64,000 nt of DNA, from contig MFPT01000021.1 of NCBI GenBank assembly GCA_001782805.1, positions 10,546 through 74,545 of the forward strand, in the 5' to 3' direction. Within the stretch, counting starts at the first letter, position 1, and each line of letters begins with the position of its first letter. The stretch is from Candidatus Magasanikbacteria bacterium RIFCSPHIGHO2_01_FULL_41_23. Lineage in GTDB: Bacteria; Patescibacteriota; Patescibacteriia; Magasanikbacterales; UBA922. The translations under genes and the position numbers were made by a program. Under the pieces are notes generated by a model. It was not told the DNA's origin, made no database searches, and was given only the letters and a program-made list of their open reading frames with translations. Positions 193 to 50,703 of the stretch are shown in pieces.

Positions 193-3100
193 ATGAACTC
201 GCATCTCCGCTCCATGCTCGGACGACTGCAGTTATTGGCACAGAAAATTTGTCCCGCGTCGGGATCATCTTGGCGCACTCCGTGGATGGTATTTTTTGGT
301 ATATTGTTTTTGGGATTTTTTCTTTTAACCATTTCTCCGGCCAATGCTCAGTTCGAAACTGTAACCAATATTTTTATTATCGGCGCGGCGCATATTATGA
401 TTGTCGTCGCCAATATTGCCATTGGTTTAACTATTTTCTTTTTGCGTTTTTTCATCATGCTGGCCAGTTACAACAATTATATTGATGTTGACGTGGTGCA
501 ATTGGGCTGGATAATGGTGCGGGATGTGGCCAATATGTTTTTTGTCGTCGCGCTGTTGGTCATAGCCTTTGGCACTATTTTGGGTTTGGAAGAATATGAA
601 TGGAAAAAGAATTTGGTTAAACTTATTCTCGCCGCGATTTTAATTAATTTCAGCAATTTGATTTGCCAGCTGCTTATAGATGTTTCCCATGTTTTTAGCA
701 TTACTTTTTTGAATGCCATTTCGGCTACGGCCGGAGGCAATCTGATTAACATGTTCAAATTGGATCAAATAACGGCTTTGGCCGGTGCGGATGATACATC
801 GGGGATTGATATTGAATTGTTGGCCGCGGCTATACCGGCCATGATGTTCGCGCTTATGGCCGCGGCCGCGCTGGGATCATACGTGTATGTTATGGCGGCG
901 CGAGTGGTGGCATTGTGGGCTTTGATTATTTTTTCCCCGCTCGCTTTTATTTTTGGCGTTTTGCCCAAGACCAAAGGATATGCGGAAAAATGGTGGACTG
1001 AATTTAACAATAACATAATTGTCGTGCCGATAATGGTGTTTTTTTTGTGGCTGTCGTTTGCCACGTTGGGTTTGGGTAATATTGCGGAACAAATTCAAAC
1101 TGGTTTGCCCGCGGGTGTCCAGATAGATGGAGCGCAACAAGGTAAAACTGAATATAAGAAGACATCGTTATCATTATCCAAAGTAACCAGTTGGGAAAAT
1201 ATGGCCAGTTTTTTGGTTGCTTTTGCGTTTTTGATGCGCGGCATTCAAGAAACCGAACAAACCGGAGTTACTGGAGCCGGAGCCATCGGCTCGGCCGTGG
1301 ATTTTGCCAAAAAAGTCGGTACCATTGCCAGTGGGTATGCGGCGGGGAGATGGTTGGCGGGGAAGACGAGGGATGGAGTAGTTGGTGGATCCAAATGGGT
1401 GGGCAAAGAACTTGGTGTACATCTGGCCAAACGGGCCGGAGTTTACGATGTTCCCGAGCGAGTCGGTAATTGGTGGAAAGCCAGAGGCGTGGCATTTGAT
1501 AAACGAAGAAGCGAAGGTCCGCTTAGTGGTGTTGTCGATTCAAAAGAAGTAGGAGAAGGTGATCAAACTAAAGATGAAACGAAAAAATTGACCGATGAAC
1601 AAGTTAAGGCTGGTTGGTCAATGAGGTTTGATAGAGAAAAAAATAAAACTGTTGCCGAACAATGGGGTGTATTGAAAGATAAGGATGGAAATCCCAAATA
1701 CAAAAGTGGTTATCAAAAATTTCTCTCTCGTCGTCACGAAAAAATAATCGCTTCTCGCAAGACTTTGGAAAAAACCGAAGGAGAATTTAAAGATAATGAA
1801 GAATTAATGGGGAAGCGTACTGAGGCTCAGTCGTTTGTTACCGGTGCAGAAAGGAGAGAGAATAGAAAATTAGAAAAAGAAGGTTTTGTTGTCAAAGACT
1901 ATGATCGTGTCAAGCGTGGTATGCTTGAAATTGAAGAAGAACGGGCATCAGCAAAAACAGCCGAGTTTAAGAATAGAGGTAAAATGATTGCTCTTGGTAG
2001 CCAACGTCTAAAGGCAGAAGGAGGAAAACCTCTTGGTTTTCAAGAAGGCGGGACAGTTGCCGAGCAAATTGCGGGTCACAAAACCCGAGCGGAATTCTTT
2101 GAATCACGAGTTAACCAAATTCTCAAAACCGCAGAAAGTAAATATAAAGGCAGTGCAGCCGGTAAACGATTTTTGGAAGGAAAAATTCAAGCCGATTTGG
2201 AAATAAAGGCTCAAGAAGCAAAGACTAAAGAATTACAAGCAGGCGCCACGACGAGAATAGCTTTGACCGATACCACTGATGTTTTAGCGCGTACAATAGA
2301 GGCGGAAAAAGCCGCGCATTTAGAAGAACAAAGATTGGCAAGAGTCCAAAAAGCCGAAGAAAGAGAATTTTACAAAGGCGATCATGGCCAAGAAGAATTG
2401 CGTGAAGAAGCGGTTTTGAAAGAACAAATCGCGGCCAGTGAAGCGGGAATAAAAAAAGAAGAGGCTGAAGCCAAACGCGAAGTTGCTGAAGGTACAGGCA
2501 GTGGAGACGAAGCGAAAGAGCGAGAACACCTCTTTAAAGTAGCTCAAGACGAGAAAATCGCGGCGACAAAACAAGCAGGTGTTCGGGAATCTTTAGCGAC
2601 CAGTGTTGAAAAAAAGGCTGAATTGGTCTATGAGACATCAGACCCAGGTAAAGAAGAAAAAGAAAAAGAATTAACTGCCAAAGAAACCATTGCCGCCACC
2701 GAAGGAAAAATAAAGAAAGAAGAGGCTACTAGAAAAGCCGTACTTGCCACAGAAGACAGTAATGAATACAAGTTACAAATGGCGGAGAGGATTGCGGCGG
2801 AAAAAGGCGCAAAGTTGGAAGAGGGGAAGGTCGCGCTTGCAGAAAAAGAGGCCACCAAAGCGTATGTTTCTGGTACAGGTGCAGATACAATTACCCAAAC
2901 CAAAGAAGTTGAATTAAAAACAAAAGCCGAAGACGCGGAAATTAAACAACGTGAAGCCGAGGCAGACAGACAAGCGGCCAATAATTTAAAAGAAGTGTTT
3001 GCTAGAATCAATTTTTCGGAACAAGCAACAAAAGCGGCTGAAGATTTTGTAAAAAATATTAAAGAAGAAGACCTGAGAGATAAATTTAAATCAGCTTCTG

Positions 3101-5001
3101 AGCAAATGAAGGGATGGATGAAATTAGACGCCACGGCTTTGGCCACGGAAATTGAAAAATTTAAGACTGCCGGTCATACTCAAGGAATTGACGCGTATGT
3201 AGTGGCGTTGGGTCAAGCTCAATTGTTAAAAGTAACTACGAGTGATTCCGGTATTCGCCATAAACAAGCCGAGGATGCGGCGTCTGACGGTTTTGTGAAT
3301 AAATCTCGGTATGGAACCACTACTGCCTCAACTGCCTATTCTGATTTTTCCGATACCAAATTAAAGGATTATAAAAAACTGGAACGCACCGCCGCCATGA
3401 AAAAAGCCACCGATGTCCATGCTTTTTTAATGCACCAAAAAGAAAATTTGCCAGCGGGTCAAGAACTTGATCTTGATCAAACAGCGGAATTATATGCTGC
3501 CAGTTCTTATTTACAATCAGAAGCATGGAATGATGATCAGGCGGCGTATACATACTCTATGTTTGAAAAATTACAAAGACATCAAGCCGAAGTAGCGAAT
3601 AAAGGAAGTTCAACTGTCATGAAAACTGATGAAGCAGCACAGTGGACCACTATGGCGAAACAATATACTAGGTTGGGCTGGCTTGATAACAATGTTATTG
3701 ATGCTGGTGGTAATTTTGTATTGGATAATGAGAAAAAAGCAGATGGTACTGATGTCATTGATAAAACAAATGGAAAAGTAGTCAAAAAGGGGAAAGCCAT
3801 TGCCAAAAAATATACACGACAAAAAGCCGCGGATATGCAGAATTTAGCTGTTACAGGCGGTGATGTAAATTTAGTGGTTGCCCATCACCAAATTTCTGAA
3901 GCGGTTGATGCCAATGCTCGGGATGTTGAAAATGCTAAGCTTGAAGCAAGAAGTAGGATTATTGCGGATAAGAAAAGTGCTAATACAACATTAACAGACG
4001 AAACGGCCGCTGCATCGGCGGAAAAAGAAATTGAATCCGCAATGGCAGCTGCGGGTAAAGCTACAGCAAAAAATTATTGGGAATTGGCGGATGTTATTTT
4101 GAAATTAGGAACTAACACAACAGGCATCGTCGATGCTGCTGCTTTGAAAGTACGTTATGAAGAACATTCTGATTTGCTTCAAGACGCCACCAAATCATAC
4201 AAAGGTTTTGCACATGCCACCGGCCATGAAAAATTAGGTGGAAACCAAGGATTTGATGAAGAGGCTGATTCCTATCGTTTTATGACGGTAAGAGAGGGTC
4301 AGGCAGAAGTTCGGGCTGATCGGGTAAAAATGAAAACTCGCCAAATCTTAAATGGAGATCAGTATCATAGTAATGGTGGTGAATTAGATTTGGATACAGG
4401 GATAATTGATAATTTCTTGGAAGACACGCTTAATCTTACTATTGGTAAAATTACCCGATACCTTGATATGGTTGATATGCCTGAACGTTCTTTGAAAGGC
4501 GCGTTCTATTTACATAAAAATGAACAAGCAAAAGTAGTGCAAGGTACGGAAGGTGCTTTAAAAGATAAAAAAGTTGCGGTGTTGGGTGGAAATAAAGCCA
4601 TGCAAAAATTTGAAGCCGATGGTGATGTTGATGAAGAAAGTAAGACAAAGCATATGATGACACGTGGTGTTGTACCGGCTTTAATGTCAGGTCATAGAGG
4701 TTGGGCAGTCGCAGCCAGTAAATTATATGGCGGTCATGTTGTGGAGGCCGACGCTCAAAAAGGGACAATAAATATGCGGGTCGGTAATAAAGAATTTGCA
4801 ACTACGAAGAATGCGGCTGAACATGTTATTACTAATTTGGAATCAGATAAAGATTACTTTAAGGGTAGCGATCTTTATGGTCAAGAAAAAAGAATATTAG
4901 AGGCCATGAATCAGATTATCGCGGATTTTAATTCTGCACCTGCACCTGCATCTGCTGTTGATACTGCTGCTGCTGGTGAAGATGATACTCCTCCTACTTA
5001 A
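193..5001 (+). CDS. Giant polytopic membrane protein: N-terminal TrbL/VirB6-like multi-TM domain (~400 aa) plus a ~1200-aa K/E/A-rich low-complexity or coiled-coil C-terminal extension
   Basis: Uninterrupted 1602-codon ORF. The first ~330 aa carry 6-7 hydrophobic helices in a VirB6/TrbL-like layout. The rest is strongly biased to K, E, A, T and Q with EAK/KEE-type periodicity. It lies in one cluster with the PrgI-like and VirB4-like genes. Confidence 0.55.
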   Translation: MNSHLRSMLGRLQLLAQKICPASGSSWRTPWMVFFGILFLGFFLLTISPANAQFETVTNIFIIGAAHIMIVVANIAIGLTIFFLRFFIMLASYNNYIDVDVVQLGWIMVRDVANMFFVVALLVIAFGTILGLEEYEWKKNLVKLILAAILINFSNLICQLLIDVSHVFSITFLNAISATAGGNLINMFKLDQITALAGADDTSGIDIELLAAAIPAMMFALMAAAALGSYVYVMAARVVALWALIIFSPLAFIFGVLPKTKGYAEKWWTEFNNNIIVVPIMVFFLWLSFATLGLGNIAEQIQTGLPAGVQIDGAQQGKTEYKKTSLSLSKVTSWENMASFLVAFAFLMRGIQETEQTGVTGAGAIGSAVDFAKKVGTIASGYAAGRWLAGKTRDGVVGGSKWVGKELGVHLAKRAGVYDVPERVGNWWKARGVAFDKRRSEGPLSGVVDSKEVGEGDQTKDETKKLTDEQVKAGWSMRFDREKNKTVAEQWGVLKDKDGNPKYKSGYQKFLSRRHEKIIASRKTLEKTEGEFKDNEELMGKRTEAQSFVTGAERRENRKLEKEGFVVKDYDRVKRGMLEIEEERASAKTAEFKNRGKMIALGSQRLKAEGGKPLGFQEGGTVAEQIAGHKTRAEFFESRVNQILKTAESKYKGSAAGKRFLEGKIQADLEIKAQEAKTKELQAGATTRIALTDTTDVLARTIEAEKAAHLEEQRLARVQKAEEREFYKGDHGQEELREEAVLKEQIAASEAGIKKEEAEAKREVAEGTGSGDEAKEREHLFKVAQDEKIAATKQAGVRESLATSVEKKAELVYETSDPGKEEKEKELTAKETIAATEGKIKKEEATRKAVLATEDSNEYKLQMAERIAAEKGAKLEEGKVALAEKEATKAYVSGTGADTITQTKEVELKTKAEDAEIKQREAEADRQAANNLKEVFARINFSEQATKAAEDFVKNIKEEDLRDKFKSASEQMKGWMKLDATALATEIEKFKTAGHTQGIDAYVVALGQAQLLKVTTSDSGIRHKQAEDAASDGFVNKSRYGTTTASTAYSDFSDTKLKDYKKLERTAAMKKATDVHAFLMHQKENLPAGQELDLDQTAELYAASSYLQSEAWNDDQAAYTYSMFEKLQRHQAEVANKGSSTVMKTDEAAQWTTMAKQYTRLGWLDNNVIDAGGNFVLDNEKKADGTDVIDKTNGKVVKKGKAIAKKYTRQKAADMQNLAVTGGDVNLVVAHHQISEAVDANARDVENAKLEARSRIIADKKSANTTLTDETAAASAEKEIESAMAAAGKATAKNYWELADVILKLGTNTTGIVDAAALKVRYEEHSDLLQDATKSYKGFAHATGHEKLGGNQGFDEEADSYRFMTVREGQAEVRADRVKMKTRQILNGDQYHSNGGELDLDTGIIDNFLEDTLNLTIGKITRYLDMVDMPERSLKGAFYLHKNEQAKVVQGTEGALKDKKVAVLGGNKAMQKFEADGDVDEESKTKHMMTRGVVPALMSGHRGWAVAASKLYGGHVVEADAQKGTINMRVGNKEFATTKNAAEHVITNLESDKDYFKGSDLYGQEKRILEAMNQIIADFNSAPAPASAVDTAAAGEDDTPPT

Positions 5002-7777: not shown

Positions 7778-7887
7778 AGACAAAACAGTATAGGGGCATT
7801 CTTGCTGGGAAGGACCATACAAAGACAAAACAGTGTACAGGATATTCCCTCATGATTACTTTCTAAAGTATACAACACTACAAATAG

Positions 7888-8922
7888 TTGTCAAGCCAAG
7901 TTATGCCCAATCAACCCACAATTCTCGTAAAAAAATCCGACGGAACGACAATCCGGATGACTCTTGACGAAGTCAAAAAAATGAAGGCGGAGAAAAAAGC
8001 AGATAATCCTTTGTTGCCACAAGAATTAGAGACAGCACCAGAAACAGTGATCAAAAAAGCTGTGGAAATGTTAAAAACTCCGGAATTGGAACCGGCACCA
8101 GTGGAATTTTTATTAAAAGCCAGCGCCGAGCCACATCTTTTGCATGAAGAAATAGAATCGCACGAAGTTACCAGACCGGAATTAGTGACCGCGGTTTCGT
8201 ACGATCGCACGGTTGACGCCGTGCTTAAAAATGCTCGCTTAACTCCGAGTCCGGAACTAATGCCGCGATTTCAGTCACTCATTATGTCGCTTATAAAAGG
8301 CGTGCGTACTGTGGCGCAAGTAATGGAATACGCGAGCGCGCCGCTTCTGCGCGGAGGTTTGGCACTTTCGATCGCCGAGGCAGAACGTCTTGCCACGGCT
8401 TTGAACACACAAACCGGTTTGCCCAATAACCGATCGATTATTATTCCCAAACCCATGACTGCGCCTGCCTCCACGCCCTCAAACATTCAGGGATCAGTCA
8501 AAAATAATCCAACTTCAAATCGTCCTCACAACACAGGCGCGGCTTTTGTCCAAATGCATGATGTGCAAGCGCCGCAGTCCGCGCCAAGCACAAGCAATAA
8601 AGCAGTCATGGGTCCTATAGAAGAAATGAAAATTTTTTCTCTCCTTGATTGGCGTCGTCTCGCGGCTACGCCGGATAAAGCCAAAGAAATAATTTTAAGT
8701 AAATTTTCCGGCTGGAAAGATGAATCATTTTTTTTGTATCGTGATACCAGATTGGCCTGGTTGGAATCGCCATTGGTGCGCGAATATCAAGAAAAAGTTA
8801 TCACTGCCATCAATCAAAGTACGCGTTTGTCTGATATGGCTTCCGGATTTGCGGTGAAAAAAACCCTGACACCGGCTGACATTGCCGCGCTCGTTGAAGT
8901 GAATAGGGTACTTGCGGTATAA
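7888..8922 (+). CDS. Hypothetical Pro/Ser/Ala-rich protein
   Basis: 344-aa ORF in the same orientation inside the T4SS-like cluster. No recognisable motifs. Confidence 0.5.
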   Translation: MSSQVMPNQPTILVKKSDGTTIRMTLDEVKKMKAEKKADNPLLPQELETAPETVIKKAVEMLKTPELEPAPVEFLLKASAEPHLLHEEIESHEVTRPELVTAVSYDRTVDAVLKNARLTPSPELMPRFQSLIMSLIKGVRTVAQVMEYASAPLLRGGLALSIAEAERLATALNTQTGLPNNRSIIIPKPMTAPASTPSNIQGSVKNNPTSNRPHNTGAAFVQMHDVQAPQSAPSTSNKAVMGPIEEMKIFSLLDWRRLAATPDKAKEIILSKFSGWKDESFFLYRDTRLAWLESPLVREYQEKVITAINQSTRLSDMASGFAVKKTLTPADIAALVEVNRVLAV

Positions 8923-8956
8923 TACTCCTACGGCCATGTAATCAAATTTTTACCGC

Positions 8957-9385
8957 ATGCAACAATTTGTTGTTCCACAATTTATTGAAGTGGAAGATAA
9001 AATTTTCGGGCCGATTACGACTCGGCAATTTTTAATTTTATTGGCCGCGGGCACAGCCATATTTTTGTCGTATCGGTTTGGCGATTTGGCTTTATTTATT
9101 TTTACGGTTGTTTTTGTCGGCGGTTTTTCCGCGATTTTGGCTTTTGTAAAAGTGAATGGTCAAAATTTTCATTATTTTTTGCTGAATATTATACAAACCA
9201 TGCGCAAACCATCATTGCGCATTTGGCAAAAAAGTTACAATAAAGAAGAACTGAATTATTTGCGCAAGCGCGATGCCGATATTAAAATAGAGCCGCTCAT
9301 CGTGGTCACAGCAGTAAAAAAAGATCGGATTCGCGACTTGGCTCTGTTGGTTAATACGGGCGGTTTTTACAAGCCCGAGGAATAG
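8957..9385 (+). CDS. PrgI-family (VirB3-like) small membrane protein of Gram-positive-type conjugation / T4SS systems
   Basis: The N-terminus VPQFIEVEDKIFGPITTRQFLILLAAG matches the PrgI-family signature (VPK..ee.KIFG.T.RQ followed by two TM helices). It lies immediately upstream of the VirB4-like ATPase, as PrgI lies upstream of PrgJ. Confidence 0.65.
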   Translation: MQQFVVPQFIEVEDKIFGPITTRQFLILLAAGTAIFLSYRFGDLALFIFTVVFVGGFSAILAFVKVNGQNFHYFLLNIIQTMRKPSLRIWQKSYNKEELNYLRKRDADIKIEPLIVVTAVKKDRIRDLALLVNTGGFYKPEE

Positions 9386-9403
9386 CGCGCGTTCACCATA
9401 AAT

Positions 9404-10093
9404 ATGTCTGACGAAAAAATGAGAAAAAAAACCAAAAAACGGCCTTCATCACAGGCTCATTTGCCCATCGCGGAAATCAAAGACAGCGTGGTGATTTTAA
9501 AAGACGGCACATTGCGCGCGGTTATTTTGGTTTCCAGTTTGAATTTTGCTCTAAAATCCGAAGATGAACAAAATGCGATTATTTCCGCGTACGTTGGTTT
9601 TCTTAATTCACTGGATTTTCCAATTCAAATTGTAGTCCAATCGCGCAAATTGCAAATCAAACCCTATTTGGAAAAATTGCAGGGGATTGAACGGACACAA
9701 ACCAATGAATTGTTGCGCATCCAAACCGCGGATTATCGCGCGTTTGTGGAAGAGTTGGTGGAGATCGGGCAGATTATGACCAAACGTTATTATGTCATTG
9801 TGCCCTATGATCCGCTGAATAATCGGCGCAAGAATTTTTGGGCACGATTTAAAGAAGCGCTTAAACCGGGAATTACCATTCGTTTGCGTGAAGAGCGATT
9901 TCAGACACGCAAAAGTGAAATTGATTTGCGTTTGCGTCACATTATTGGCGGACTGTCCGGCATGGGACTCACCACAGTTCAGCTGGATACGCAATCTTTG
10001 ATTGAATTATATTATTCCACTTACAATCCGGATATCGCTTTTGCCGAAACATTGGGCACGATTGGCGATCTCCAAATTGAAGATATTTCATAA
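9404..10093 (+). CDS. VirB4/TraC-type ATPase, N-terminal domain (separate ORF; frame differs from the ATPase domain ORF)
   Basis: IKDSVVILKDGTLRAVILVSSLNF resembles the conserved N-terminal 'IxDGiixtkdGslxrvievepin' region of VirB4/TrbE/PrgJ. The stop at 10093 is followed 2 nt later by the ATG of the ATPase-domain ORF in another frame. Confidence 0.55.
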   Translation: MSDEKMRKKTKKRPSSQAHLPIAEIKDSVVILKDGTLRAVILVSSLNFALKSEDEQNAIISAYVGFLNSLDFPIQIVVQSRKLQIKPYLEKLQGIERTQTNELLRIQTADYRAFVEELVEIGQIMTKRYYVIVPYDPLNNRRKNFWARFKEALKPGITIRLREERFQTRKSEIDLRLRHIIGGLSGMGLTTVQLDTQSLIELYYSTYNPDIAFAETLGTIGDLQIEDIS

Positions 10094-10095
10094 GT

Positions 10096-11955
10096 ATGCC
10101 ATTTAAACCCATTGCCACCAATAAAAAAGGAATCAGTTCGGCAGCGCCGGACATTGAGAAAAAAAAACTGCAAAAAGAATTGATTACTTTGGAAGAAGAA
10201 CGGGTGTATCGCGAAGGCACGGTGGCCATTCGCGATTTGGTCGCGCCGTCCGCACTATCGGTTCAGTCCAATTTTGTGCAATTGGGCACGACTTTTTTGC
10301 GTACGATTTTTGTGATTACGTATCCGCGTTATATGTCAGTCGGCTGGAGTTCGCCGATTTTAAATTTAAATTTGACCATGGATTTGGCTATGTTTTTTTA
10401 TCCGGTCAATTCGGAAATTATTTTAAAACAGCTCAAGAAAAAAGTTGGCGCGCTGGAAGCGCAATTGTCCGGTGACGCGGAAAAAGGCGCGGCGCGTGAT
10501 CCGTTGCGCGAAACTGCTTTGCGCGATATTGAACAACTGCGCGATGATTTAACGCAAGGCGTGGAACATTTTTTTCAATTTGCTTTTTACGTTACGCTTT
10601 ACAGCCAAGACAAAAAAGAATTGGATAAAGTTACGGAAGACATTCAGAATATTTTTGGTTCCAAATTAATTTACAGCAAAAATGTTTTGTATCAGGCCGA
10701 ACAAGGTTTTACTTCAACGTTGCCGCTGGGGATTGATGAGTTGACGATTTCTTTTAACATGAATTCCTCGCCGATCGCGGCCTCGTTTCCGTTTATTTCC
10801 TCGGAATTAAGCAGTGATGATGGAATTTTGTATGGCATCAATCGCCATAATAACAGTTTAATTTTGTTTGATCGTTTTTCTTTGCAAAATGCCAATATGG
10901 TGGTTTTTGCCACTTCCGGAGCGGGAAAATCTTATGCTATTAAATTGGAAGTTTTGCGTAGTTTAATGATGGGAACTGACGTGATTGTGATTGATCCGGA
11001 AATGGAATATGAGCATTTGGCCGAGGCGGTTGGCGGAACTTATATCAGTATTTCTTTGGCTTCGGAAAGCAAAGTCAATCCGTTTGATTTGCCGCGTCCG
11101 GTTGGTCAGCAAATTTCCACCGAAGATATTATTCGCAGCGCAGTAATTACGATGAAAGGTTTGTTGCGGATTATGTTTGGCACACTGACGCCGCAGGAAG
11201 ATTCAATTTTGGATCGCGCGCTTTTGGAAACGTACGCGAAAAAAGACATTACAGCTACAGTTGATCTGACCACAGTCGAGCCGCCGATTATGCAGGATTT
11301 GCTGGATATTTTGGAAGGCATGACGGGCGCGGAAGTATTGGTTTTAAAATTGCGCAAATATACCGAAGGCACGTTTGCCGGATTATTCAATTCTCCGACC
11401 AATGTGAATGTGACCAATCAATTGGTTATTTTTAGCGTGCGTGATTTGGAAGATGAATTGCGGCCAATGGCGATTTATACGTTGGTGAATTATATTTGGA
11501 ATTTAGTTCGTTCCGAACAAAAACGGAGAATTTTGATTATTGATGAAGCGTGGTGGCTTATGAGTCACGAGGATTCGGCCAAATTCATTTACGCGCTCGT
11601 GAAGCGTTGTCGCAAATATTATTTGGGTGTGACGACCATTACCCAGGATGTGAATGATTTTTTACGTTCGCCATACGGACAGGCGATTGTAACCAATTCG
11701 GCTTTGCAACTTTTGCTCCGTCAATCACCCGCGGCCGTGGATATGATTCAACGCGTGTTTATGTTGACCGAAGGAGAAAAATATTTGCTTTTGGAAGGCG
11801 CGGTCGGTGAAGGCATATTTTTTGCCGGCAATAAACACGCGGCCATCAAAGTCGTGGCGTCTTATACCGAAGATCAACTCATCACGTCTGATCCCAAACA
11901 ATTATTGGAAATTGAAAAAGCCAAAAAAGAATTTGAAGAACAAATGGGAAAATAA
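10096..11955 (+). CDS. virB4: VirB4/TrbE/PrgJ-like T4SS ATPase, central and C-terminal ATPase domains
   Basis: Walker A VVFATSGAGKSYAIK and Walker B ILIIDEAWWLM. The architecture resembles VirB4/CagE/TraC. Together with the upstream ORF it gives ~848 aa, a typical VirB4 length. Confidence 0.75.
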   Translation: MPFKPIATNKKGISSAAPDIEKKKLQKELITLEEERVYREGTVAIRDLVAPSALSVQSNFVQLGTTFLRTIFVITYPRYMSVGWSSPILNLNLTMDLAMFFYPVNSEIILKQLKKKVGALEAQLSGDAEKGAARDPLRETALRDIEQLRDDLTQGVEHFFQFAFYVTLYSQDKKELDKVTEDIQNIFGSKLIYSKNVLYQAEQGFTSTLPLGIDELTISFNMNSSPIAASFPFISSELSSDDGILYGINRHNNSLILFDRFSLQNANMVVFATSGAGKSYAIKLEVLRSLMMGTDVIVIDPEMEYEHLAEAVGGTYISISLASESKVNPFDLPRPVGQQISTEDIIRSAVITMKGLLRIMFGTLTPQEDSILDRALLETYAKKDITATVDLTTVEPPIMQDLLDILEGMTGAEVLVLKLRKYTEGTFAGLFNSPTNVNVTNQLVIFSVRDLEDELRPMAIYTLVNYIWNLVRSEQKRRILIIDEAWWLMSHEDSAKFIYALVKRCRKYYLGVTTITQDVNDFLRSPYGQAIVTNSALQLLLRQSPAAVDMIQRVFMLTEGEKYLLLEGAVGEGIFFAGNKHAAIKVVASYTEDQLITSDPKQLLEIEKAKKEFEEQMGK

Positions 11956-14783: not shown

Positions 14784-14873
14784 TGGCGGAGAGGGAGGGA
14801 TTCGAACCCTCGAGGGATTTGACTCCCTGCAGCTTTAGCAAAGCTGTACGATCGGCCACTCTGACACCTCTCC
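14784..14873 (-). tRNA. tRNA-Ser (anticodon GCU), class II long variable arm, CCA encoded
   Basis: The reverse complement folds as GGAGAGG..T-arm GGTTCGAATCC..CCTCTCC-G-CCA. Anticodon loop UUGCUAA. Long variable arm and G73 discriminator. Confidence 0.8.
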
Positions 14874-14930
14874 ATTTTTTATTTTTTTTGCTTGCTCTGA
14901 GCGATCCCGACATAGTCGGGAGAGTCGAAG

Positions 14931-15019
14931 GGCGGAGAGATAGAGATTCGAACTCTAGAGGCTCTTGCGAGCCCGGCAGTTTAGTAAACTGCTGCCTTAA
15001 ACCACTCGGCCATCTCTCC
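14931..15019 (-). tRNA. Class II (Ser-type) tRNA with atypical anticodon loop UUACUAA (apparent anticodon ACU); CCA not encoded
   Basis: GGAGAGA-U-GGCCGAGUGGUUUAAGGC-A-GCAGU-UUACUAA-ACUGC-long arm-UAGAG-UUCGAAU-CUCUA-UCUCUCC-G. The body closely parallels the adjacent tRNA-Ser(UGA). Its loop differs from the tRNA-Ser(GCU) loop only by A at position 34. Confidence 0.55.
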
Positions 15020-15094
15020 ATAAATTCTGATATTGTGGGCTTGCCCTGAGCGAGCGACTTGTGGTGAGCGGAGTCGAAACCAAGCGAGTCGAAG

Positions 15095-15183
15095 GGCGGA
15101 GAGAGTGAGATTCGAACTCACGGAGGACTTGCATCCTCAACAGTTTTCAAGACTGTCGCCTTAAACCACTCAGCCATCTCTCC
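15095..15183 (-). tRNA. tRNA-Ser (anticodon UGA), class II
   Basis: GGAGAGA-U-GGCUGAGUGGUUUAAGGC-G-ACAGU-CUUGAAA-ACUGU-long arm-GUGAG-UUCGAAU-CUCAC-UCUCUCC-G. Confidence 0.8.
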
Positions 15184-15282
15184 AGAACTTTATCCTATAA
15201 ACAGAAAAACTATAGCAAAATTAAGTATTTTTCGCAAGTGTATTGTGCCGTGATTTTTGCCATGATATACTCAAGTTGAACT

Positions 15283-17733: not shown

Positions 17734-19047
17734 ATGTTAAAACTTTTAAGCAAGATGGTTTTATTTGTATTTATAGTCTTACTATTTTCTCTATCTTTTA
17801 CATCTTTCACACTTGCTATTTCGGTTTCAGAGTCTAATATCGACACTACGTACATGGTGGAGGATATGGTCGTGGATAGTTCGGGCAATATTCATACTGT
17901 TGTTATCCAATCAGTCAGCCAAACGGCGAATAATTTAGTATACAAAAAATATAATGGATCAAGTTGGAGTGCGACAACTGTTAGTAGCACGGTGAATATA
18001 TCTTACTATGCCAGTATAAAACTGGATTCCAGTGGTAATCCGGGGATTGCTTTTGCTGAATGGAATAGTGGTGTTGGAACACGAGCACTTTATTATAAGA
18101 AATATAATGGCAGTACTTGGGGAACAACAGTTGAAGTCGAAACAGGAATGGACAATGCTTCCGGAAGACCGGCATTGGAATTTTACAAAGAAGACGTGGA
18201 TGCAAACTATCCCACGATTTTCACTTGTCACGGATCTACGTATATTGTAGAAGAACATAAAGCGACTGGCAGCGGAACAGAACCAACTTTTGCCGCTCCC
18301 GCGAGTGTTTCCAATAACAATGACCATGATTGTTCGTCAATTGATGCGCATATTTCCGCGACAGATTATAGAGAAATTGTTATATCCCCAAAAGGTAGTC
18401 CCGGCACGACTGCATACGCTTTAAGTAATGATGGAAGTGGCTGGAATGCTAGCACTCTTTTTACCAGTGTTGATGTTATAAATGGCAGTGTGATTTTTTT
18501 GGATTATGATGGCAGTGAATATCATGCGGTAATAATAGATGATGCTTCGGCCAGCACTACGGATAATATTCTATATAGTAAAATGTCAGGCGGAAGCTGG
18601 TCGGCACAAGAAACAGTCGTTTCCGGAGCGCGACTTGGTCAAAATTATGTTGATATAGTTGCTGATACGGACAATTCTATTCCGTATGTTCTTTATTTTG
18701 ACAATGCCAACAATCTGCTTAAATATTCCTACAAACAAAATGGAAGCTGGACAGCCGGTACAATTGACAGTGGATTTAGCTTGGGGACAATGCAAGGAGA
18801 TTATAATAATTTTGTCGCCGGAGATTATTATTCCGGAGGATCAAAATTGATTGTTTTGGGTACACAATATTTGTCTGGTCCACCCAAATCATTTGAATTC
18901 AATAAATACGATTTAACCGGTCTCCCCACTCAAAGTCAAGAGGGTTCGGGAGTGCCGGAATTTAGCACCTATATGTATACTCTAATTCTTATTATGGGAT
19001 TTGGTTTTTTATACAGACGTTTTGGAGGAGAATTTTCTTTAAGATAA
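17734..19047 (+). CDS. Secreted repeat protein (YNGSxW beta-propeller-like repeats) with a C-terminal PEF/PEP-CTERM-like sorting signal
   Basis: N-terminal signal/TM segment. Repeated blocks KKYNGSSWSATTV and KKYNGSTWGTTV. The C-terminus is GSGVPEFSTYMYTLILIMGFGFLYRRFGG: a VPEF motif, a hydrophobic helix and an RR basic patch. Confidence 0.55.
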   Translation: MLKLLSKMVLFVFIVLLFSLSFTSFTLAISVSESNIDTTYMVEDMVVDSSGNIHTVVIQSVSQTANNLVYKKYNGSSWSATTVSSTVNISYYASIKLDSSGNPGIAFAEWNSGVGTRALYYKKYNGSTWGTTVEVETGMDNASGRPALEFYKEDVDANYPTIFTCHGSTYIVEEHKATGSGTEPTFAAPASVSNNNDHDCSSIDAHISATDYREIVISPKGSPGTTAYALSNDGSGWNASTLFTSVDVINGSVIFLDYDGSEYHAVIIDDASASTTDNILYSKMSGGSWSAQETVVSGARLGQNYVDIVADTDNSIPYVLYFDNANNLLKYSYKQNGSWTAGTIDSGFSLGTMQGDYNNFVAGDYYSGGSKLIVLGTQYLSGPPKSFEFNKYDLTGLPTQSQEGSGVPEFSTYMYTLILIMGFGFLYRRFGGEFSLR

Positions 19048-19342
19048 ATTTGAATCAATGGAAAGGGGTGGCCACTAAGGCTATCCCCAGACAGAACTTG
19101 ACAAAAGTTCTGGGTTTTGGTATTGTTCTGCGTTACATTGTAATCTTGTGTCCACTATCTCGACTTAGTCGGGACGAGCGAGGATATAGGGTATGTGCGT
19201 GTTTCTTCCTTAAGTAGGATAGCAAATAAGTATTACCCTGTATCCACGACAAGCATGGAGGTGTGAAGTAGGGAAGAGCAGGCTCACGCTCGCCTTTACC
19301 TATGTCACACCTTCTTGGATACGGGTAGGTTTATCCTATATA

Positions 19343-19394
19343 AAAAAAGCCTTCTTCGACACGGGTTTATCCCGAGCTTGTCGAGGGAGGCTTT
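19343..19394 (-). terminator. Rho-independent terminator downstream of clpP (minus strand)
   Basis: On the minus strand: AAAAGCCTCCCTCGACAAGCTCGGGATAAACCCGTGTCGAAGAAGGC followed by TTTTTTT. The hairpin contains a copy of the dispersed GTTTA.CC.GAGCTTGTCGA.GG motif. Confidence 0.45.
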
Positions 19395-19397
19395 TGT

Positions 19398-20012
19398 TTA
19401 TATGACTTTATCCGCCAAACCATAGGCCACGGCTTCGGTTGGATCCATAAAATGATCGCGATCAGTGTCTTGTTCTATGCGACTGATTGGTTGTCCGGTA
19501 TGATCAGCCAAGATTTGATTGAGTCGGTCTTTAATTTTTAAAATGCGTTCGGCGTGAATTTTGATATCACTGGCTTGGCCTTGCGCGCCGCCCAATACTT
19601 GATGAATCATAATTTCGCTGTTGGGCAAACAAAAACGTTTGCCTTTTTGACCGGCGGCCAAAAGCACTGATGCCATGCTCGCGGCCAAACCAATACAAAT
19701 GGTGGAAACATCGGATTTTATATATTTCATGGTGTCATAAATCGCCATGCCGGCTGTGACCGATCCACCCGGGGAATTGATGTACAATTTGATATCTTTT
19801 TCCGGATCTTGGTTTTCCAAAAATAAAAGTTGCGCAATCACAATATTGGCCACATGATCATCAATTTCCGTGCCCAAAAAAATGATCCGGTCTTTGAGCA
19901 GGCGCGAATAAATATCATACGCGCGCTCGCCGGACGATGTTTTTTCAATGACAGTGGGGATGAGATATTGGGCGGTGGGCGCAATGGTATTTTTAATACT
20001 GGTATTATTCAT
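19398..20012 (-). CDS. clpP: ATP-dependent Clp protease proteolytic subunit
   Basis: Full-length ClpP pattern: [24 protein letters not shown], catalytic Ser region [14 protein letters not shown], and the His/Asp region. Confidence 0.9.
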
Positions 20013-37765: not shown

Positions 37766-40063
37766 TCAGCCTGATCCTCCATGATCCTCGGTCGCAATTT
37801 TGTCCTCTTCTTCTGTCAGTTGTTTTCCATGTTCCAAAGGGCATATTTTATAATACCACAAAGCCCGAGCCATGGCAGGATCACTGACGCGGTTGCATTT
37901 AAAGGCTTCGGTAATAGTGGGTTTATTAATACATTTACCTGTGCCTCCACTAGTTATCAATCGAACTCCAGCCTCAAGTCCCGTGTCAGGATTTAGTAAA
38001 TCAGTGACCGTATACCAACGATCGTACATATTAACCGCCCACTCAGAACCAAGTGGACCATTTATCTTTTTTGCTTCAAAACCACCCCCTTCTGGGAAAA
38101 TAGTAATGCCCATAAAAAAACCATGAGAAAATCTCCAATCAATGTCATAGTCTGGTGGATTGCTAAAATCGTTTCCTGTTTTGCCACCATGGTAATGCAA
38201 GTCATCATTTGATTGTCCTCCACCGGTTTTTTTTGGACTGGCAGGGTAATTGTTCCAATATTTTTTTCCACCTAAATCGTACTGAGATTCGTTCATTGGT
38301 GTAAAAGCGACACCTTTATATGTTACACCGGACATTAAAAATTTTTTTCTAGCAAGGACAGGTTTGTTATTATTTTGATAACCCTCATCGCCTCCGAGTA
38401 TTAAAGTTGACGCACCACCCTTTTCATTTCCCGATTCTTTATTGGCCCAAGCCCAGGCGTAACAGGCGTCTATCTTTAATTTTTCGGCAAGGTCAGCGAT
38501 ATTTTGGTTTGTAATTTTTCCGCTTGCCTTAGCTGGAATACTGTTGTGATGAAAATTAGTATCGCTCACCAAAGTACCATTAGAATTCATTTGATTTATA
38601 TATTGCGTAAAATCGGCTTGACGCGCATATAAAACTTTTAAGTTTCTAAATTGAACAAGTTCCGGATTAATGGTAAAGAGAATAACATAAGAAGTTGAGC
38701 TGATTAATAATCCGGTAACTGCTTGCACAATCATATTTTTGCCCGATGACTTGCTGTTTCCACTCGTATCGGGAATCGTAAATAAAAATCCGCCAATTAT
38801 AATCCGAACAAGACAAAAAATTCCGGCAATAACCACTAAATATTTGTAGACTGCGGCCAGATATTCTCCCAGAAAAGGAATATTCAAATAAGTGTTTCCC
38901 AAATCATCGCCACTTAATTCTCCCTCAATAGTTATATCAGAAAAATTAAGGCCGGGGATTTTTATTTTTGGTTGAGGTTTTTGTAATAATTGCCGAAGTT
39001 CATCCTCGGATAATGATGTATTTTTAATGGCGTGCGCAACATCACTTGATGCGGTCGCATCGGTGGCCGGCGCGGTTTTATCAGCCTCGATACTTATGGG
39101 GTATTTTGTTCCTTGTACAGAGCCAACACAAAAATGAAGGGCGTGAGCATCATCAATTCCACCATCATTTTTACATTCCCATGTTTCGTCGGCTGTGGAT
39201 TTGCCATAAGCGTTTTCACAATCAACATTTTTATTACACACGCAAATATTAGCATTTGCTCCATCGAGATCACTGTCTTCACAATCCAATTTATTTGGAC
39301 AATCAGAGTTGCTAACCCAATTTTTACATTGTTTTCCAATTCCATATTCGAGGGCTTTGGGATCAGTAGTTACAACAGGATTGTTTTTTGGAGCAGACGC
39401 AGGCAGAGGTACATCCTTGCCATACGCCGCGCTCATTACCGCTTTGAAAAGTAAAGCATGGCCAGCGTCATTGGTGTGTAGAGCATTATTACCCAAACCA
39501 GTATCAATCGCATCATCGCCGTTTTTGTCAATAAGAGCAGCATAATCAATATAAATATCAACTTTAGTTTTGAACCACGCATTATTTTTTTTGAGATTTT
39601 CACTCCACAGAGGAGTCCATGCGCCCCAACCTTTGAAAGGTTGGGCGCCGACACCAATTATACGCATGCCTTCTTTTTTTGCCTCAGTAATAATCTTATC
39701 TAGATCCGCTTGATTTTTGACTGTAGTATTTTCCAAACCATTTAATCCCGCGTATAATATAAGTTCTTTAAAACCATTATTAGCAACTCCTCCTTGCATG
39801 GTAAATTGTTCTAAAAAATAAGTGGAATTTGTACTAAGTTTGGCGAAACAAGTAAAATTGTAATCAGGCAAAGCTTTCTTAAGTTGCATGACAAAACCAT
39901 TCGTCACATTATTTTTTTCAGGTTTTGAACCAATACAACCATCATCGAACGTTGATGAACCAACAACCGCTACATTAGTTTTGGCCAAGGCTGTTAAAGG
40001 AAAAAAAATAAAAGCAAAAGTAAGAATGATAATTTGTAATGCTCTATACTTCATATTTAACAT
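37766..40063 (-). CDS. Large secreted/membrane protein: N-terminal SGNH/GDSL-hydrolase-like domain, Cys-rich region, two internal TM helices, C-terminal unknown domain
   Basis: Signal peptide MKYRALQIIILTFAFIFFPLTALA. SGNH blocks VAVVGSSTF (Ser), GxND-like and NDAGHAL (DxxH). About 20 Cys in 120 aa. A TM hairpin YLVVIAGIFCLVRIIIGGFLF..NMIVQAVTGLLISSTSYVILFTI. Located next to a DsbA-like gene. Confidence 0.55.
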   Translation of the reverse strand: MLNMKYRALQIIILTFAFIFFPLTALAKTNVAVVGSSTFDDGCIGSKPEKNNVTNGFVMQLKKALPDYNFTCFAKLSTNSTYFLEQFTMQGGVANNGFKELILYAGLNGLENTTVKNQADLDKIITEAKKEGMRIIGVGAQPFKGWGAWTPLWSENLKKNNAWFKTKVDIYIDYAALIDKNGDDAIDTGLGNNALHTNDAGHALLFKAVMSAAYGKDVPLPASAPKNNPVVTTDPKALEYGIGKQCKNWVSNSDCPNKLDCEDSDLDGANANICVCNKNVDCENAYGKSTADETWECKNDGGIDDAHALHFCVGSVQGTKYPISIEADKTAPATDATASSDVAHAIKNTSLSEDELRQLLQKPQPKIKIPGLNFSDITIEGELSGDDLGNTYLNIPFLGEYLAAVYKYLVVIAGIFCLVRIIIGGFLFTIPDTSGNSKSSGKNMIVQAVTGLLISSTSYVILFTINPELVQFRNLKVLYARQADFTQYINQMNSNGTLVSDTNFHHNSIPAKASGKITNQNIADLAEKLKIDACYAWAWANKESGNEKGGASTLILGGDEGYQNNNKPVLARKKFLMSGVTYKGVAFTPMNESQYDLGGKKYWNNYPASPKKTGGGQSNDDLHYHGGKTGNDFSNPPDYDIDWRFSHGFFMGITIFPEGGGFEAKKINGPLGSEWAVNMYDRWYTVTDLLNPDTGLEAGVRLITSGGTGKCINKPTITEAFKCNRVSDPAMARALWYYKICPLEHGKQLTEEEDKIATEDHGGSG

Positions 40064-49830: not shown

Positions 49831-50703
49831 TTAAACCATCTCGCGTAATTGTTTGATCCGCTCAATAATCGGCGGATGCGTGGAAAAAAGATTGGTTAGA
49901 TTTTTTCCTTTAAAAGGATTGGAAATAAATAAATGAGCCGTGGCCGTGGATGCGGTTTCCAGCGGTTGATTGGAAGCCGAAATTTTTTCCAGTGCCCGCG
50001 CCAAGCCTTCGGGATAACGGGTCAAAAGCGAACCAGAAGCATCTGCTAAAAATTCGCGTTTGCGCGACACTGCCAATTTGATGAGCTCGGCAATAATCGG
50101 TGACAAAAGAATTAAGACAAGGCCGGCAATCGCCAAAATCCCGCCGCTTTTATTGTCATTATCCGATGATCGTCGCCAATTGGAGTGTAAAAACCAATTA
50201 GCCATAAGGGAAATGGCGCCAACCAACACAATGACAATCGTCATGACGCGGATATCATAATTTTTGACATGCGATAATTCGTGCGCGATCACGCCTTCCA
50301 ATTCTTCATTTTCCAACGCCTGAATAATTCCCGTAGTAAACGCAATTGATGAATGTTTGGGATCGCGTCCGGTGGCAAAGGCATTTAAAGCCGGGCTGTT
50401 AATGATATAAATTTTAGGCACGGGCAAGCCGGCAGTAATACACAAATTTTCCACTAAATTATACAAATAAGGATTGTCTTTTTTGGCGATGTGTCGCGCG
50501 CTAGTTGAACGCAAGGCAACTTTGTCACCATGATAATAACTGAATAATGTCATGACGAGTGAAATGAAAACAGCCAAAACAATCGCTTCCGATCCATAAC
50601 CAAACCAGGTTTTCAAAACCCAACCAAGCCCGGTGATAAACGAGATGAAAATCAAAATTAAAATAATGGTGCGATGTTTGTTGGCGTCGATTTGGGAATA
50701 CAT
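49831..50703 (-). CDS. htpX: Zinc metalloprotease HtpX (M48 family)
   Basis: HEXXH motif AHELSHV. Four TM helices. Typical HtpX length. Confidence 0.85.
   Translation of the reverse strand: MYSQIDANKHRTIILILIFISFITGLGWVLKTWFGYGSEAIVLAVFISLVMTLFSYYHGDKVALRSTSARHIAKKDNPYLYNLVENLCITAGLPVPKIYIINSPALNAFATGRDPKHSSIAFTTGIIQALENEELEGVIAHELSHVKNYDIRVMTIVIVLVGAISLMANWFLHSNWRRSSDNDNKSGGILAIAGLVLILLSPIIAELIKLAVSRKREFLADASGSLLTRYPEGLARALEKISASNQPLETASTATAHLFISNPFKGKNLTNLFSTHPPIIERIKQLREMV

What the first reader, a model, noticed from the sequence alone, without database searches (positions are those of the whole stretch)
18943..19047. PEF/PEP-CTERM-like C-terminal sorting signal on a secreted repeat protein
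The 437-aa protein 17734..19047 ends with ..SGVPEFSTYMYTLILIMGFGFLYRRFGG: a VPEF motif, a hydrophobic helix and an Arg-Arg patch. This is the tripartite layout of exosortase/archaeosortase substrates (PEP-CTERM, PEF-CTERM). Such signals imply a dedicated sortase and surface-anchored cargo. Seeing one in a putative CPR genome is unexpected and worth checking.
Basis: partly seen in the sequence, partly recalled or inferred. Interest (0 to 1): 0.5.

Follow-up and report, generated by a model that had tools for sequence, protein, structure and literature searches.

The report
New exosortase sorting tail in CPR bacteria
A secreted propeller protein of an ultra-small (CPR) bacterium ends in a conserved "VPEF + membrane helix + basic patch" tail that in related CPR genomes lies beside an uncurated type of exosortase, so the tail most likely marks surface proteins for cutting and anchoring, although the enzyme was not found in the 84 kb of this genome I could read.

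Summary
ORF 17734..19047 (+), 437 aa, has a Sec-type signal peptide and an all-beta BNR/sialidase-like body. It ends ...GSG-VPEF-STYMYTLILIMGFGFLY-RR-FGGEFSLR.

The tail is not chance. A tail-only profile searched against 1.84 billion proteins gave 28 hits with E<=1e-3, all at the extreme C-terminus, on unrelated cargo. In 36 tails P-E-F is invariant.

In Ca. Uhrbacteria and Ca. Peregrinibacteria, a tail-bearing gene ends 2-3 nt from a 313-319 aa exosortase/archaeosortase-family gene. These enzymes pass TIGR04178 and keep the Cys/Arg/His residues. A third genome carries tail and enzyme on one 509-kb contig.

Neither tail nor enzyme reaches any curated subfamily cut-off. The nearest are archaeal PEF-CTERM/ArtC and XrtE/VPEID-CTERM. 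It is therefore a new variant: a CPR-specific exosortase clade with a "VPEFS[T/D]Y" signal.

The same genome assembly has a second tail-bearing protein (A2821_02040). Its enzyme was not found in the 84 kb I could read, and the rest of the genome was out of reach. No processing has been shown experimentally.

The parts
17734..19047 (+). Cargo gene: 437-aa secreted BNR/sialidase-like beta-propeller protein with a C-terminal sorting tail (NCBI A2821_02345, annotated too short at 397 aa)
   Evidence: ORF and translation. The exact protein occurs on 24 contigs. Homologues P0002-P0005. All-beta model. Weak BNR_4 similarity.
17734..17817 (+). Predicted Sec signal peptide (aa 1-28, MLKLLSKMVLFVFIVLLFSLSFTSFTLA, likely cleavage after TLA)
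   Evidence: Read from the sequence. It aligns with the N-terminal hydrophobic leaders ending A-x-A in P0002, P0004 and P0005. It is modelled as a helix, residues 2-26. The cleavage site is inferred and was not computed with a dedicated predictor.
17836..18918 (+). Propeller-like body (about aa 35-395) with recurring '[YF]-x-G-[ST]-W' blade motifs
   Evidence: Alignment A2 has invariant W78, W129, W289 and W339. DSSP shows runs of four strands. UniRef names the paralogue P0016 'Sialidase domain-containing protein'.
18922..18951 (+). Linker before the motif (LPTQSQEGSG); Gly-rich in most family members
   Evidence: In the 36-tail table, positions -8..-2 are dominated by Gly (up to 28/36).
18952..18978 (+). 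Signature motif VPEFSTYMY (aa 407-415). The presumed exosortase recognition/cleavage site; it abuts the helix with no spacer
   Evidence: P, E and F invariant in 36/36 tails; V-1 34/36, S+3 31/36, Y+5 34/36, Y+7 32/36. All 28 profile hits are C-terminal.
18964..19014 (+). Hydrophobic transmembrane segment (aa 411-427, STYMYTLILIMGFGFLY) with conserved in-helix positions (T+10, F+15, G+16, Y+19 in the family)
   Evidence: Position table. Modelled as helix 410-430. Invariant L419 and G424 in alignment A2.
19015..19044 (+). Cytoplasmic basic patch and short extension (RR FGGEFSLR)
   Evidence: Sequence. In the family, positions +20/+21 are K/R in 22/36 and 19/36 tails, often followed by P-K.

Best explanation
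The last ~40 residues of the 437-aa protein are a C-terminal protein-sorting domain of the exosortase/archaeosortase type. It belongs to a previously uncurated family, here called 'VPEF-CTERM': Gly-rich linker, VPEFS[T/D]Y[V/M]Y, about 16 hydrophobic residues, then Y-[K/R]-[K/R]. The named carriers are all CPR bacteria.

Proposed mechanism:
1. The N-terminal signal peptide sends the propeller domain through Sec.
2. The C-terminal helix, with its basic patch on the cytoplasmic side, holds the protein in the membrane.
3. A polytopic CPR-specific exosortase (about 315 aa, Cys/Arg/His catalytic residues) recognises the VPEF motif at the outer face of the membrane. It cuts there and removes the helix and basic patch.
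4. By analogy with ArtA/PGF-CTERM, it probably transfers the new C-terminus to a lipid or envelope acceptor, so the cargo stays on the cell surface.

Shown here: the tail's conservation, its modularity, its strictly C-terminal position, and its genomic linkage to the enzyme clade in relatives. Inferred: cleavage, the cleavage site, the acceptor, and the presence of the enzyme in this genome.
For: 1. Conservation beyond the cargo. Orthologues at 56-62 % identity, and homologues/paralogues at 26-27 % identity, keep GVPEF..Y..Y exactly.

2. Modularity. An exhaustive profile search gave 28 hits with E<=1e-3, all C-terminal. The cargo is unrelated: PPC+FG-GAP, Big_5, beta-helix/NosD, Laminin_G_3, FISUMP+fn3, BNR-like propellers.

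3. Enzyme linkage.
- In Ca. Uhrbacteria (L014), the 759-aa VPEF-tailed protein (7826..10105) is followed 2 nt later, on the same strand, by a 313-aa polytopic protein. That protein hits TIGR04178 exo_archaeo at 37.3 bits (cut-off 23) and PF09721 at 26.2 bits (GA 25.7).
- In Ca. Peregrinibacteria (L023), two VPEF-tailed FG-GAP genes precede a convergent 319-aa PF09721/TIGR04178 gene. The second cargo gene ends 3 nt from it.
- P0012 (tail) and P0044 (enzyme) lie on the same 508,744-bp contig.

4. The five enzymes form one clade: 29-56 % identity, 345-470 bits to my clade HMM. GP-x-C-[AS]-G, LNI-x-RV and ELFHEY are invariant, that is, the Cys/Arg/His of the family (triad per Haft 2023).

5. The motif abuts the helix without a spacer, and several in-helix positions are conserved. 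Haft describes both as typical of signals cut by deeply membrane-embedded enzymes, unlike LPXTG.

6. More than one tail protein per genome. A2821_02345 (this gene) and A2821_02040 (P0016) share a locus-tag prefix. L023 has two.

7. The nearest curated models agree with each other. The tails hit only PEF-CTERM recurrently. The enzymes' best subfamily hits are XrtE (VPEID-CTERM) and ArtC (PEF-CTERM).
Against: - No exosortase homologue in the window or in 10 kb on either side (about 84 kb: tblastn and clade HMM; Pfam labels). None within +-10 kb of the second tail gene either. The rest of the genome could not be searched.
- The word-indexed search with the Uhrbacteria enzyme returned no Magasanikbacteria protein. 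It returned only 3 hits in all, so it is insensitive.
- The window's own tail matches no curated CTERM model at E<=10.
- Adjacency was seen in only 2 of about 10 tail loci examined.
- Cleavage and anchoring are entirely inferred. No CPR exosortase has been studied experimentally, as far as the searchable literature shows.
Confidence: 0.72

Rival explanations
1. Plain C-terminal membrane anchor. The helix and basic patch simply tether the exported propeller as a type I membrane protein. VPEF is a conserved juxtamembrane structural feature and nothing is cut.
For: No processing enzyme was found in the 84 kb of this genome that could be read. Most tail genes are not next to an exosortase. Distant archaeal relatives of the cargo (P0007, P0009) end in ordinary TM anchors.
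Against: A passive anchor does not explain several findings. P-E-F is invariant and the residues at -1, +3, +5 and +7 are nearly so, on unrelated cargo from different CPR lineages. Tail genes directly abut exosortase genes in two independent lineages.
Confidence: 0.15
2. The tail is a substrate of a different sorting enzyme: a sortase (LPXTG-type), a rhombosortase (GlyGly-CTERM type, given the Gly-rich linker), or a CPBP/myxosortase-type protease.
For: The tripartite layout is shared by all these systems. A Gly-rich run precedes the motif. CPR bacteria are monoderm-like and often have sortases (general knowledge, not tested here). The window has intramembrane proteases: M50/RseP at 51344..52519 and M48/HtpX at 49831..50703.
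Against: No LPXTG or GlyGly-CTERM model was reported for this tail or its 22 sister tails; only the archaeal-type P0006 tail gave a sub-threshold LPXTG_anchor hit (12.3 bits against 15.9). There is no T-G after the proline and no spacer before the helix, unlike LPXTG. There is no invariant Cys, as myxosortase signals require. No sortase, rhomboid or CPBP label appears in any of the neighbourhoods examined, whereas the exosortase does.
Confidence: 0.06
3. The tail is a genuine member of the archaeal PEF-CTERM / archaeosortase C system, acquired from archaea. No new family is needed.
For: TIGR03024 PEF-CTERM is the only sorting model that recurs on the tails (5 of 23, best E 0.0066). ArtC (TIGR03762) is among the best subfamily hits of the enzymes. 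The propeller cargo family has archaeal relatives, some with IPEF/VPF-type tails (P0006, P0008, P0009).
Against: Every score is below the curated cut-offs. The tails reach at most 16.7 bits against 23, and the window's tail gives no hit. The enzymes reach 27-32.5 bits against 100 for ArtC, and score about as well on XrtE. The named carriers are CPR bacteria. The extended signature S-[TD]-Y-[VM]-Y and the in-helix T/F/G/Y pattern are specific to this group.
Confidence: 0.07

Closest known systems
PEF-CTERM sorting domain / archaeosortase C (TIGR03024 / TIGR03762; Haft, Payne & Selengut 2012, cited in PMC5244752)
   Same: A P-E-F signature directly followed by a TM helix and a basic cluster at the extreme C-terminus. 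The enzyme is in the same Cys/Arg/His polytopic family. It is the only curated signal model that weakly recognises these tails, and ArtC is among the enzymes' best subfamily matches.
   Different: Scores are below the curated cut-offs (tails <=16.7 against 23; enzymes <=32.5 against 100). The named carriers are CPR bacteria, not methanogens/ANME archaea. The signature is longer and different (G-rich linker, V-PEF-S-[T/D]-Y-[V/M]-Y, conserved T/F/G/Y inside the helix).
VPEID-CTERM / exosortase E (XrtE, TIGR04162)
   Same: The motif begins V-P-E. XrtE is the best or second-best subfamily hit for all five CPR enzymes (21-32.5 bits). P0040, a true XrtE (504 bits), was the only non-clade protein pulled in by the enzyme search.
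   Different: XrtE is fused to a CPBP/CAAX-type protease domain (516-position model; P0040 is 536 aa). The CPR enzymes are 313-335 aa with no such domain. Scores are far below the cut-off of 150.
PEP-CTERM / exosortase A, B (TIGR02595; XrtA TIGR03109)
   Same: Tripartite signal. The typical PEP-CTERM start (VPEPS...) resembles VPEFS... (this consensus is from my own recollection, not tested). Same enzyme superfamily. Several substrates per one enzyme.
   Different: F replaces the second P. TIGR02595 was not among the families reported for the tails, and only one tail hit the related PEPxxWA-CTERM model, at 13.2 bits against 35. XrtA scores 12-17 bits against 208. Per my own knowledge, PEP-CTERM systems are described from diderm bacteria with EPS loci, whereas CPR cells are thought to lack an outer membrane.
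PGF-CTERM / archaeosortase A (Haloferax volcanii S-layer glycoprotein)
   Same: The best-studied mechanistic model. The enzyme removes the C-terminal helix and a lipid is attached, leaving the protein surface-anchored in a single-membrane cell. This is the mechanism I propose by analogy.
   Different: Different motif (PGF), different enzyme subfamily, and archaeal. No PGF-CTERM model hit.

Membership tests
PEF-CTERM sorting domain (TIGR03024) | Score at or above the curated cut-off (23 bits) of the family HMM | tested here: not met
   The window tail gives no hit at E<=10, whether scanned as the whole protein or as the 40-aa tail. Of 23 sister tails, 5 give sub-threshold hits, the best 16.7 bits.
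PEF-CTERM sorting domain (TIGR03024) | P-E-F signature, then TM helix, then basic cluster, at the extreme C-terminus | tested here: met
   VPEF at aa 407-410, hydrophobic stretch 411-427, RR at 428-429, end at 437. PEF is invariant in 36 tails.
PEF-CTERM sorting domain (TIGR03024) | Cognate enzyme is archaeosortase C (TIGR03762, cut-off 100) | tested here: not met
   Enzymes linked to VPEF tails score 27-32.5 bits on TIGR03762, or give no reported hit.
PEP-CTERM (TIGR02595) / exosortase XrtA-XrtB | HMM match of the tail; P-E-P motif; XrtA/XrtB-type enzyme | tested here: not met
   TIGR02595 is not among the families reported for the window tail or for the 23 tails of A3. The motif is PEF. XrtA scores 12.5-16.8 bits against 208.
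Exosortase/archaeosortase-dependent sorting signals (general class) | Short signature motif abutting a TM helix followed by basic residues, at the C-terminus of a protein with an N-terminal signal peptide | tested here: met
   Criterion as stated by Haft 2023.
Exosortase/archaeosortase-dependent sorting signals (general class) | The same tail on multiple unrelated cargo proteins, and more than one per genome | tested here: met
   28 C-terminal hits on at least 6 cargo architectures. Two proteins with locus-tag prefix A2821. Two in L023.
Exosortase/archaeosortase-dependent sorting signals (general class) | Co-occurrence or neighbourhood with an exosortase/archaeosortase family enzyme (TIGR04178 / PF09721, Cys-Arg-His) | tested here: inconclusive
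   Met in relatives: adjacent in L014 and L023, and on the same contig for P0012/P0044. Not found in the 84 kb of this genome that could be read.
Exosortase/archaeosortase-dependent sorting signals (general class) | Proteolytic removal of the C-terminal helix, with or without attachment of an anchor | not testable with these tools
   Needs proteomics or biochemistry.
Exosortase E / VPEID-CTERM system (TIGR04162) | Enzyme scores >=150 bits and carries a fused CPBP protease domain | tested here: not met
   CPR enzymes score 21-32.5 bits and are 313-335 aa without a CPBP domain. The control P0040 scores 504 bits.
LPXTG / sortase | LPXTG-type motif with a spacer before the helix; LPXTG_anchor HMM; sortase (PF04203) gene | tested here: not met
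   No LPXTG model hit on the window tail. There is no T-G and no spacer. No sortase label in any neighbourhood or among the window proteins scanned.
GlyGly-CTERM / rhombosortase | GlyGly-CTERM HMM match; rhomboid-family enzyme | tested here: not met
   No such model hit. No rhomboid label in the neighbourhoods. The genome-wide absence of a rhomboid was not tested.

The most novel reading that the evidence does not exclude
CPR bacteria of at least two deep lineages (ABY1-type Parcubacteria such as Magasanikbacteria and Uhrbacteria, and Peregrinibacteria) have their own exosortase subfamily and cognate 'VPEF-CTERM' signal. The system is evolutionarily intermediate between archaeal ArtC/PEF-CTERM and bacterial XrtE/VPEID-CTERM. 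It covalently anchors a small set of adhesin-like proteins (propellers, FG-GAP, beta-helix, Ig-like) to the surface of these single-membrane, host-dependent cells. The signal would then be a sequence key to the CPR surface proteins that may mediate host contact.
Probability: 0.5. Interest if true: 0.7.

Novelty: new variant of a known kind. Interest (0 to 1): 0.6.

Why it matters
CPR/Patescibacteria make up a large share of bacterial diversity. Most are thought to live attached to host cells, yet how they build and decorate their surface is largely unknown.

A dedicated exosortase-type sorting system would have two uses. First, it gives a simple sequence rule (the VPEFS[T/D]Y tail) to pick out surface-displayed proteins in CPR genomes; the cargo found here looks like adhesins and binding modules. 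Second, it extends exosortase/archaeosortase biology to bacteria without an outer membrane, in a form closest to archaeal systems, which bears on how these systems spread between domains.

The curated models (NCBIfam release 20, Pfam) name neither the tail nor the enzyme subfamily, and NCBI labels both 'hypothetical protein'. A likely reason is that the published discovery work used RefSeq genomes, which to my knowledge exclude such MAGs.

Tried and rejected
- Curated CTERM models on the whole protein, on the 40-aa tail and on 8 homologues: no hit. Only the per-tail scan of 23 tails revealed sub-threshold PEF-CTERM similarity.
- Word-indexed homology search with the tail profile: 19 candidates and 1 hit, too insensitive. 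One earlier call failed on a parameter limit.
- Word-indexed search with the Uhrbacteria exosortase: only 3 hits and none from Magasanikbacteria. This says little, because just 8000 word-sharing candidates were scored for a hydrophobic query.
- Metagenome scan with the enzyme alignment: the derived patterns (A[FL][QE]LFHEY, VF[MI][LF]YLYK) were so narrow that they would not match even the Peregrinibacteria enzyme. It yielded 2 short contigs with no visible tails.
- Genome scan with the tail: 3 loci. The Bdellovibrionota one is a false positive inside the N-terminal TM region of a Bac_transf sugar transferase.
- Search for a sorting enzyme in the window: the membrane and unannotated proteins are M48, M50/RseP, DsbA-like, LemA, a T4SS-pilin-like protein and others. 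There is no sortase, exosortase, rhomboid or CPBP.
- Extending 10 kb beyond both window ends, and looking around the second tail gene: no enzyme.
- Upstream fragment on L016 as a possible tail: it is not one.
- Prepilin peptidase next to P0005: judged a coincidence, since it does not recur elsewhere.
- Structure prediction of the cargo: pLDDT 58, too low for a fold search, so none was run.
- The Haft 2012 paper (PMC3256604) is not held. PEF-CTERM/ArtC facts were taken from PMC5244752 and the 2023 preprint.
Full report
**1. The observation**

ORF 17734..19047 on the + strand encodes 437 aa. The C-terminus is ...LPTQSQEGSG-VPEF-STYMYTLILIMGFGFLY-RR-FGGEFSLR*.

The N-terminus (MLKLLSKMVLFVFIVLLFSLSFTSFTLA|ISVSE) has the shape of a Sec signal peptide. 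It aligns with the leaders of homologues. The public NCBI model (P0001, A2821_02345, 397 aa) starts at an internal Met and loses it.

The body is all-beta in four-strand repeats, with recurrent G-S-W motifs and weak BNR_4 similarity. UniRef calls a paralogue 'Sialidase domain-containing protein'. The structure model is poor (pLDDT 58), so I did not run a fold search.

The window maps to Ca. Magasanikbacteria, assembly GCA_001782895.1, contig MFPY01000010.1, at roughly 129.4-193.4 kb of 221.5 kb. This is a member of the Patescibacteria/Parcubacteria group, so the 'putative CPR' guess is right.

**2. Is the tail more than chance?**

Yes, for three reasons.

- Homologues at 56-62 % identity (P0002-P0004) and at 26-27 % identity (P0005, P0016) all keep G-VPEF-[SK]-[TH]-Y, then a hydrophobic stretch, then basic residues.
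- A 37-position profile of five tails, searched exhaustively against 1.84 billion representative proteins, gave 28 proteins with E<=1e-3. In all 28 the match ends within 3-16 residues of the C-terminus, and the proteins range from 90 to 1237 aa.
- The cargo is heterogeneous: PPC + FG-GAP (P0022), Big_5 (P0023), right-handed beta-helix/NosD (P0031), Laminin_G_3 (P0015), FG-GAP (P0030, P0036), FISUMP + fn3 (L014) and BNR-like propellers.

In 36 collected tails:

| Position | Residue | Count |
|---|---|---|
| -1 | V | 34/36 |
| 0, +1, +2 | P, E, F | 36/36 each |
| +3 | S | 31/36 |
| +4 | T or D | 33/36 |
| +5 | Y | 34/36 |
| +7 | Y | 32/36 |
| +10 (in helix) | T | 27/36 |
| +15 (in helix) | F | 23/36 |
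| +16 (in helix) | G | 22/36 |
| +19 (in helix) | Y | 25/36 |
| +20 / +21 | K or R | 22/36 and 19/36 |

Upstream there is a Gly-rich linker. PEF lies 22-37 residues (median 31) from the end. The motif abuts the helix with no spacer.

**3. Which enzyme?**

The window itself has no candidate. Its membrane proteins are an M48 peptidase, an M50/RseP peptidase, a DsbA-like protein, LemA and others. tblastn and a clade HMM find nothing.

A scan of 185,579 species-representative genomes with the tail gave only two true loci: Ca. Peribacteria L013 and Ca. Uhrbacteria L014. It also gave one false positive, in a Bdellovibrionota sugar transferase.

*Uhrbacteria (L014).* The tail-bearing 759-aa protein (7826..10105) is followed 2 nt later, on the same strand, by a 313-aa polytopic protein. 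That protein passes the exosortase/archaeosortase family signature TIGR04178 (37.3 bits, cut-off 23, E 2.6e-9) and PF09721 (26.2 bits against 25.7).

*Peregrinibacteria (L023).* Two FG-GAP proteins with VPEFQDY and VPEFKDF tails precede a convergent 319-aa PF09721 gene. The second cargo gene ends 3 nt from it.

*A third genome.* The enzyme P0044 and the tail protein P0012 lie on the same 508,744-bp contig.

The five enzymes I collected (L014, P0039, P0042/L023, P0043/L017, P0044/L018) are 29-56 % identical. They share GP-x-C-[AS]-G, LNI-x-RV and ELFHEY. These contain the Cys, Arg and His that define the family's presumed catalytic triad.

At eight other tail loci no enzyme lies within about 10 kb: the window, P0002, P0005, P0012, P0015, P0016, P0030 and L013. 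Scattered substrates are what I would expect of a system in which one enzyme serves several substrates; this expectation rests on my own knowledge of exosortase systems.

**4. Mechanism**

I infer the following, by homology to the family and by analogy to ArtA/PGF-CTERM as summarised.

1. Sec export via the N-terminal signal peptide.
2. Transient retention in the membrane by the C-terminal helix, with the basic patch on the cytoplasmic side.
3. Recognition of VPEF, and of the conserved face of the helix, by the polytopic exosortase.
4. Cleavage that removes the helix, probably coupled to transfer onto a lipid or envelope acceptor.

The result would be a surface-displayed propeller. The conserved in-helix residues and the lack of a spacer are what Haft describes for signals cut by deeply membrane-embedded enzymes, as opposed to LPXTG/sortase.

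None of these biochemical steps is shown here. What is shown is the architecture, the conservation, the modularity and the genomic linkage.

**5. Comparison with known systems**

*The tail.* The window's tail hits no NCBIfam or Pfam model at E<=10. Across 23 tails, the only recurring sorting model is archaeal PEF-CTERM (TIGR03024): 5 tails, best 16.7 bits against a cut-off of 23.

*The enzymes.* No named subfamily cut-off is approached. The best are XrtE/VPEID-CTERM (21-32.5 bits against 150) and archaeosortase C (27-32.5 against 100). A genuine XrtE (P0040) scores 504 bits and carries the fused CPBP domain that the CPR enzymes lack.

So the system works like PEF-CTERM/ArtC and its relatives but is not a member of any curated pair. 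It is a new subfamily and signal pair.

The searchable literature holds no paper that connects exosortases or archaeosortases with CPR bacteria. Four term pairs were searched, and the two papers returned by the last pair are by title unrelated. NCBI labels both the tail proteins and the enzyme 'hypothetical protein'. JGI labels one enzyme with the generic family name.

**6. This genome specifically**

- *Other proteins with the tail: met.* P0016 (469 aa, only 26 % identical overall, tail GSSVPEFSTYVYIITFLIGFALIQHK...) carries locus tag A2821_02040, the same prefix as our A2821_02345.
- *An exosortase in the genome: undecided.* I could read only the window plus 10 kb on each side, and the 17 kb around P0016 in a sibling assembly. 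No enzyme is there.

The tail's strict conservation between two paralogues at 26 % identity in this genome argues that the recognition partner is present. That is inference.

**7. Verdict**

The best description is a new, CPR-restricted (as far as named carriers show) variant of the exosortase/archaeosortase sorting systems.

I put 0.72 on 'exosortase-processed sorting signal', 0.15 on 'unprocessed anchor', and the remainder on other enzymes or on simple PEF-CTERM membership. Interest is moderate to high (0.6). It is incremental for the sorting-signal field, but it gives a usable handle on the CPR surface proteome.

Noticed in passing
window 19048..19397 (between the cargo gene and convergent clpP at 19398..20012): A 350-nt gene-free stretch folds unusually well: + strand -146.2 kcal/mol, z = -7.5 against shuffles; - strand z = -5.2. 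The last ~50 nt look like a bidirectional terminator hairpin. The remaining ~270 nt match no Rfam family at gathering scores, and only two weak hits appear at E<=1. It may be an unclassified structured RNA.
   Followed up: partly
window 14784..15184 (- strand): Three tandem tRNA-Ser genes. The middle one (14930..15020) has the anticodon loop TTACTAA, that is, anticodon ACT with A34, next to Ser(GCT) and Ser(TGA). To my knowledge A34 is unusual in bacteria outside tRNA-Arg(ACG).
   Followed up: partly
window 17734..17853: The public NCBI gene model (A2821_02345, 397 aa) starts at internal Met41 and so lacks the signal peptide. Homologues support the 437-aa form.
   Followed up: yes
window 57546..62366; also L026 946..5679: The DnaE (DNA polymerase III alpha) gene carries an intein with a LAGLIDADG endonuclease domain. 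The ribonucleotide reductase of the sibling assembly has one too.
   Followed up: no
window 8957..11955: A type IV secretion-like gene set (PrgI-like, TraC-like, VirB4/TraG-type ATPase). A T4SS-pilin-like segment also occurs in the 765-aa protein at 37766..40063.
   Followed up: no
window 193..5001: A 1602-aa protein with about 7 predicted N-terminal TM segments and no Pfam match.
   Followed up: no
P0006, P0008, P0009 (homologues of the cargo): The propeller cargo family has distant relatives in archaea (P0009 is from Bathyarchaeia). Two relatives of unknown origin carry other CTERM-like tails: AIPEFPS... (P0006, which weakly hits GVDTG-CTERM at 18.8 bits against 29) and GVPFTG... (P0008). 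This hints that cargo, signal or both are shared across domains.
   Followed up: partly
L023 10439..13600 and L017 1..261: In the Peregrinibacteria-type loci, the exosortase gene sits directly downstream of isoleucyl-tRNA synthetase. The IleS identity in L017 is judged by eye from the C-terminal fragment. This is a possible conserved synteny marker for finding the enzyme.
   Followed up: no
L028 335..1738 (P0030): One tail variant ends right after the helix (…VPEFSTYVYVFTLMVAFSAINAQ) with no basic cluster, so the basic patch may not be strictly required.
   Followed up: no
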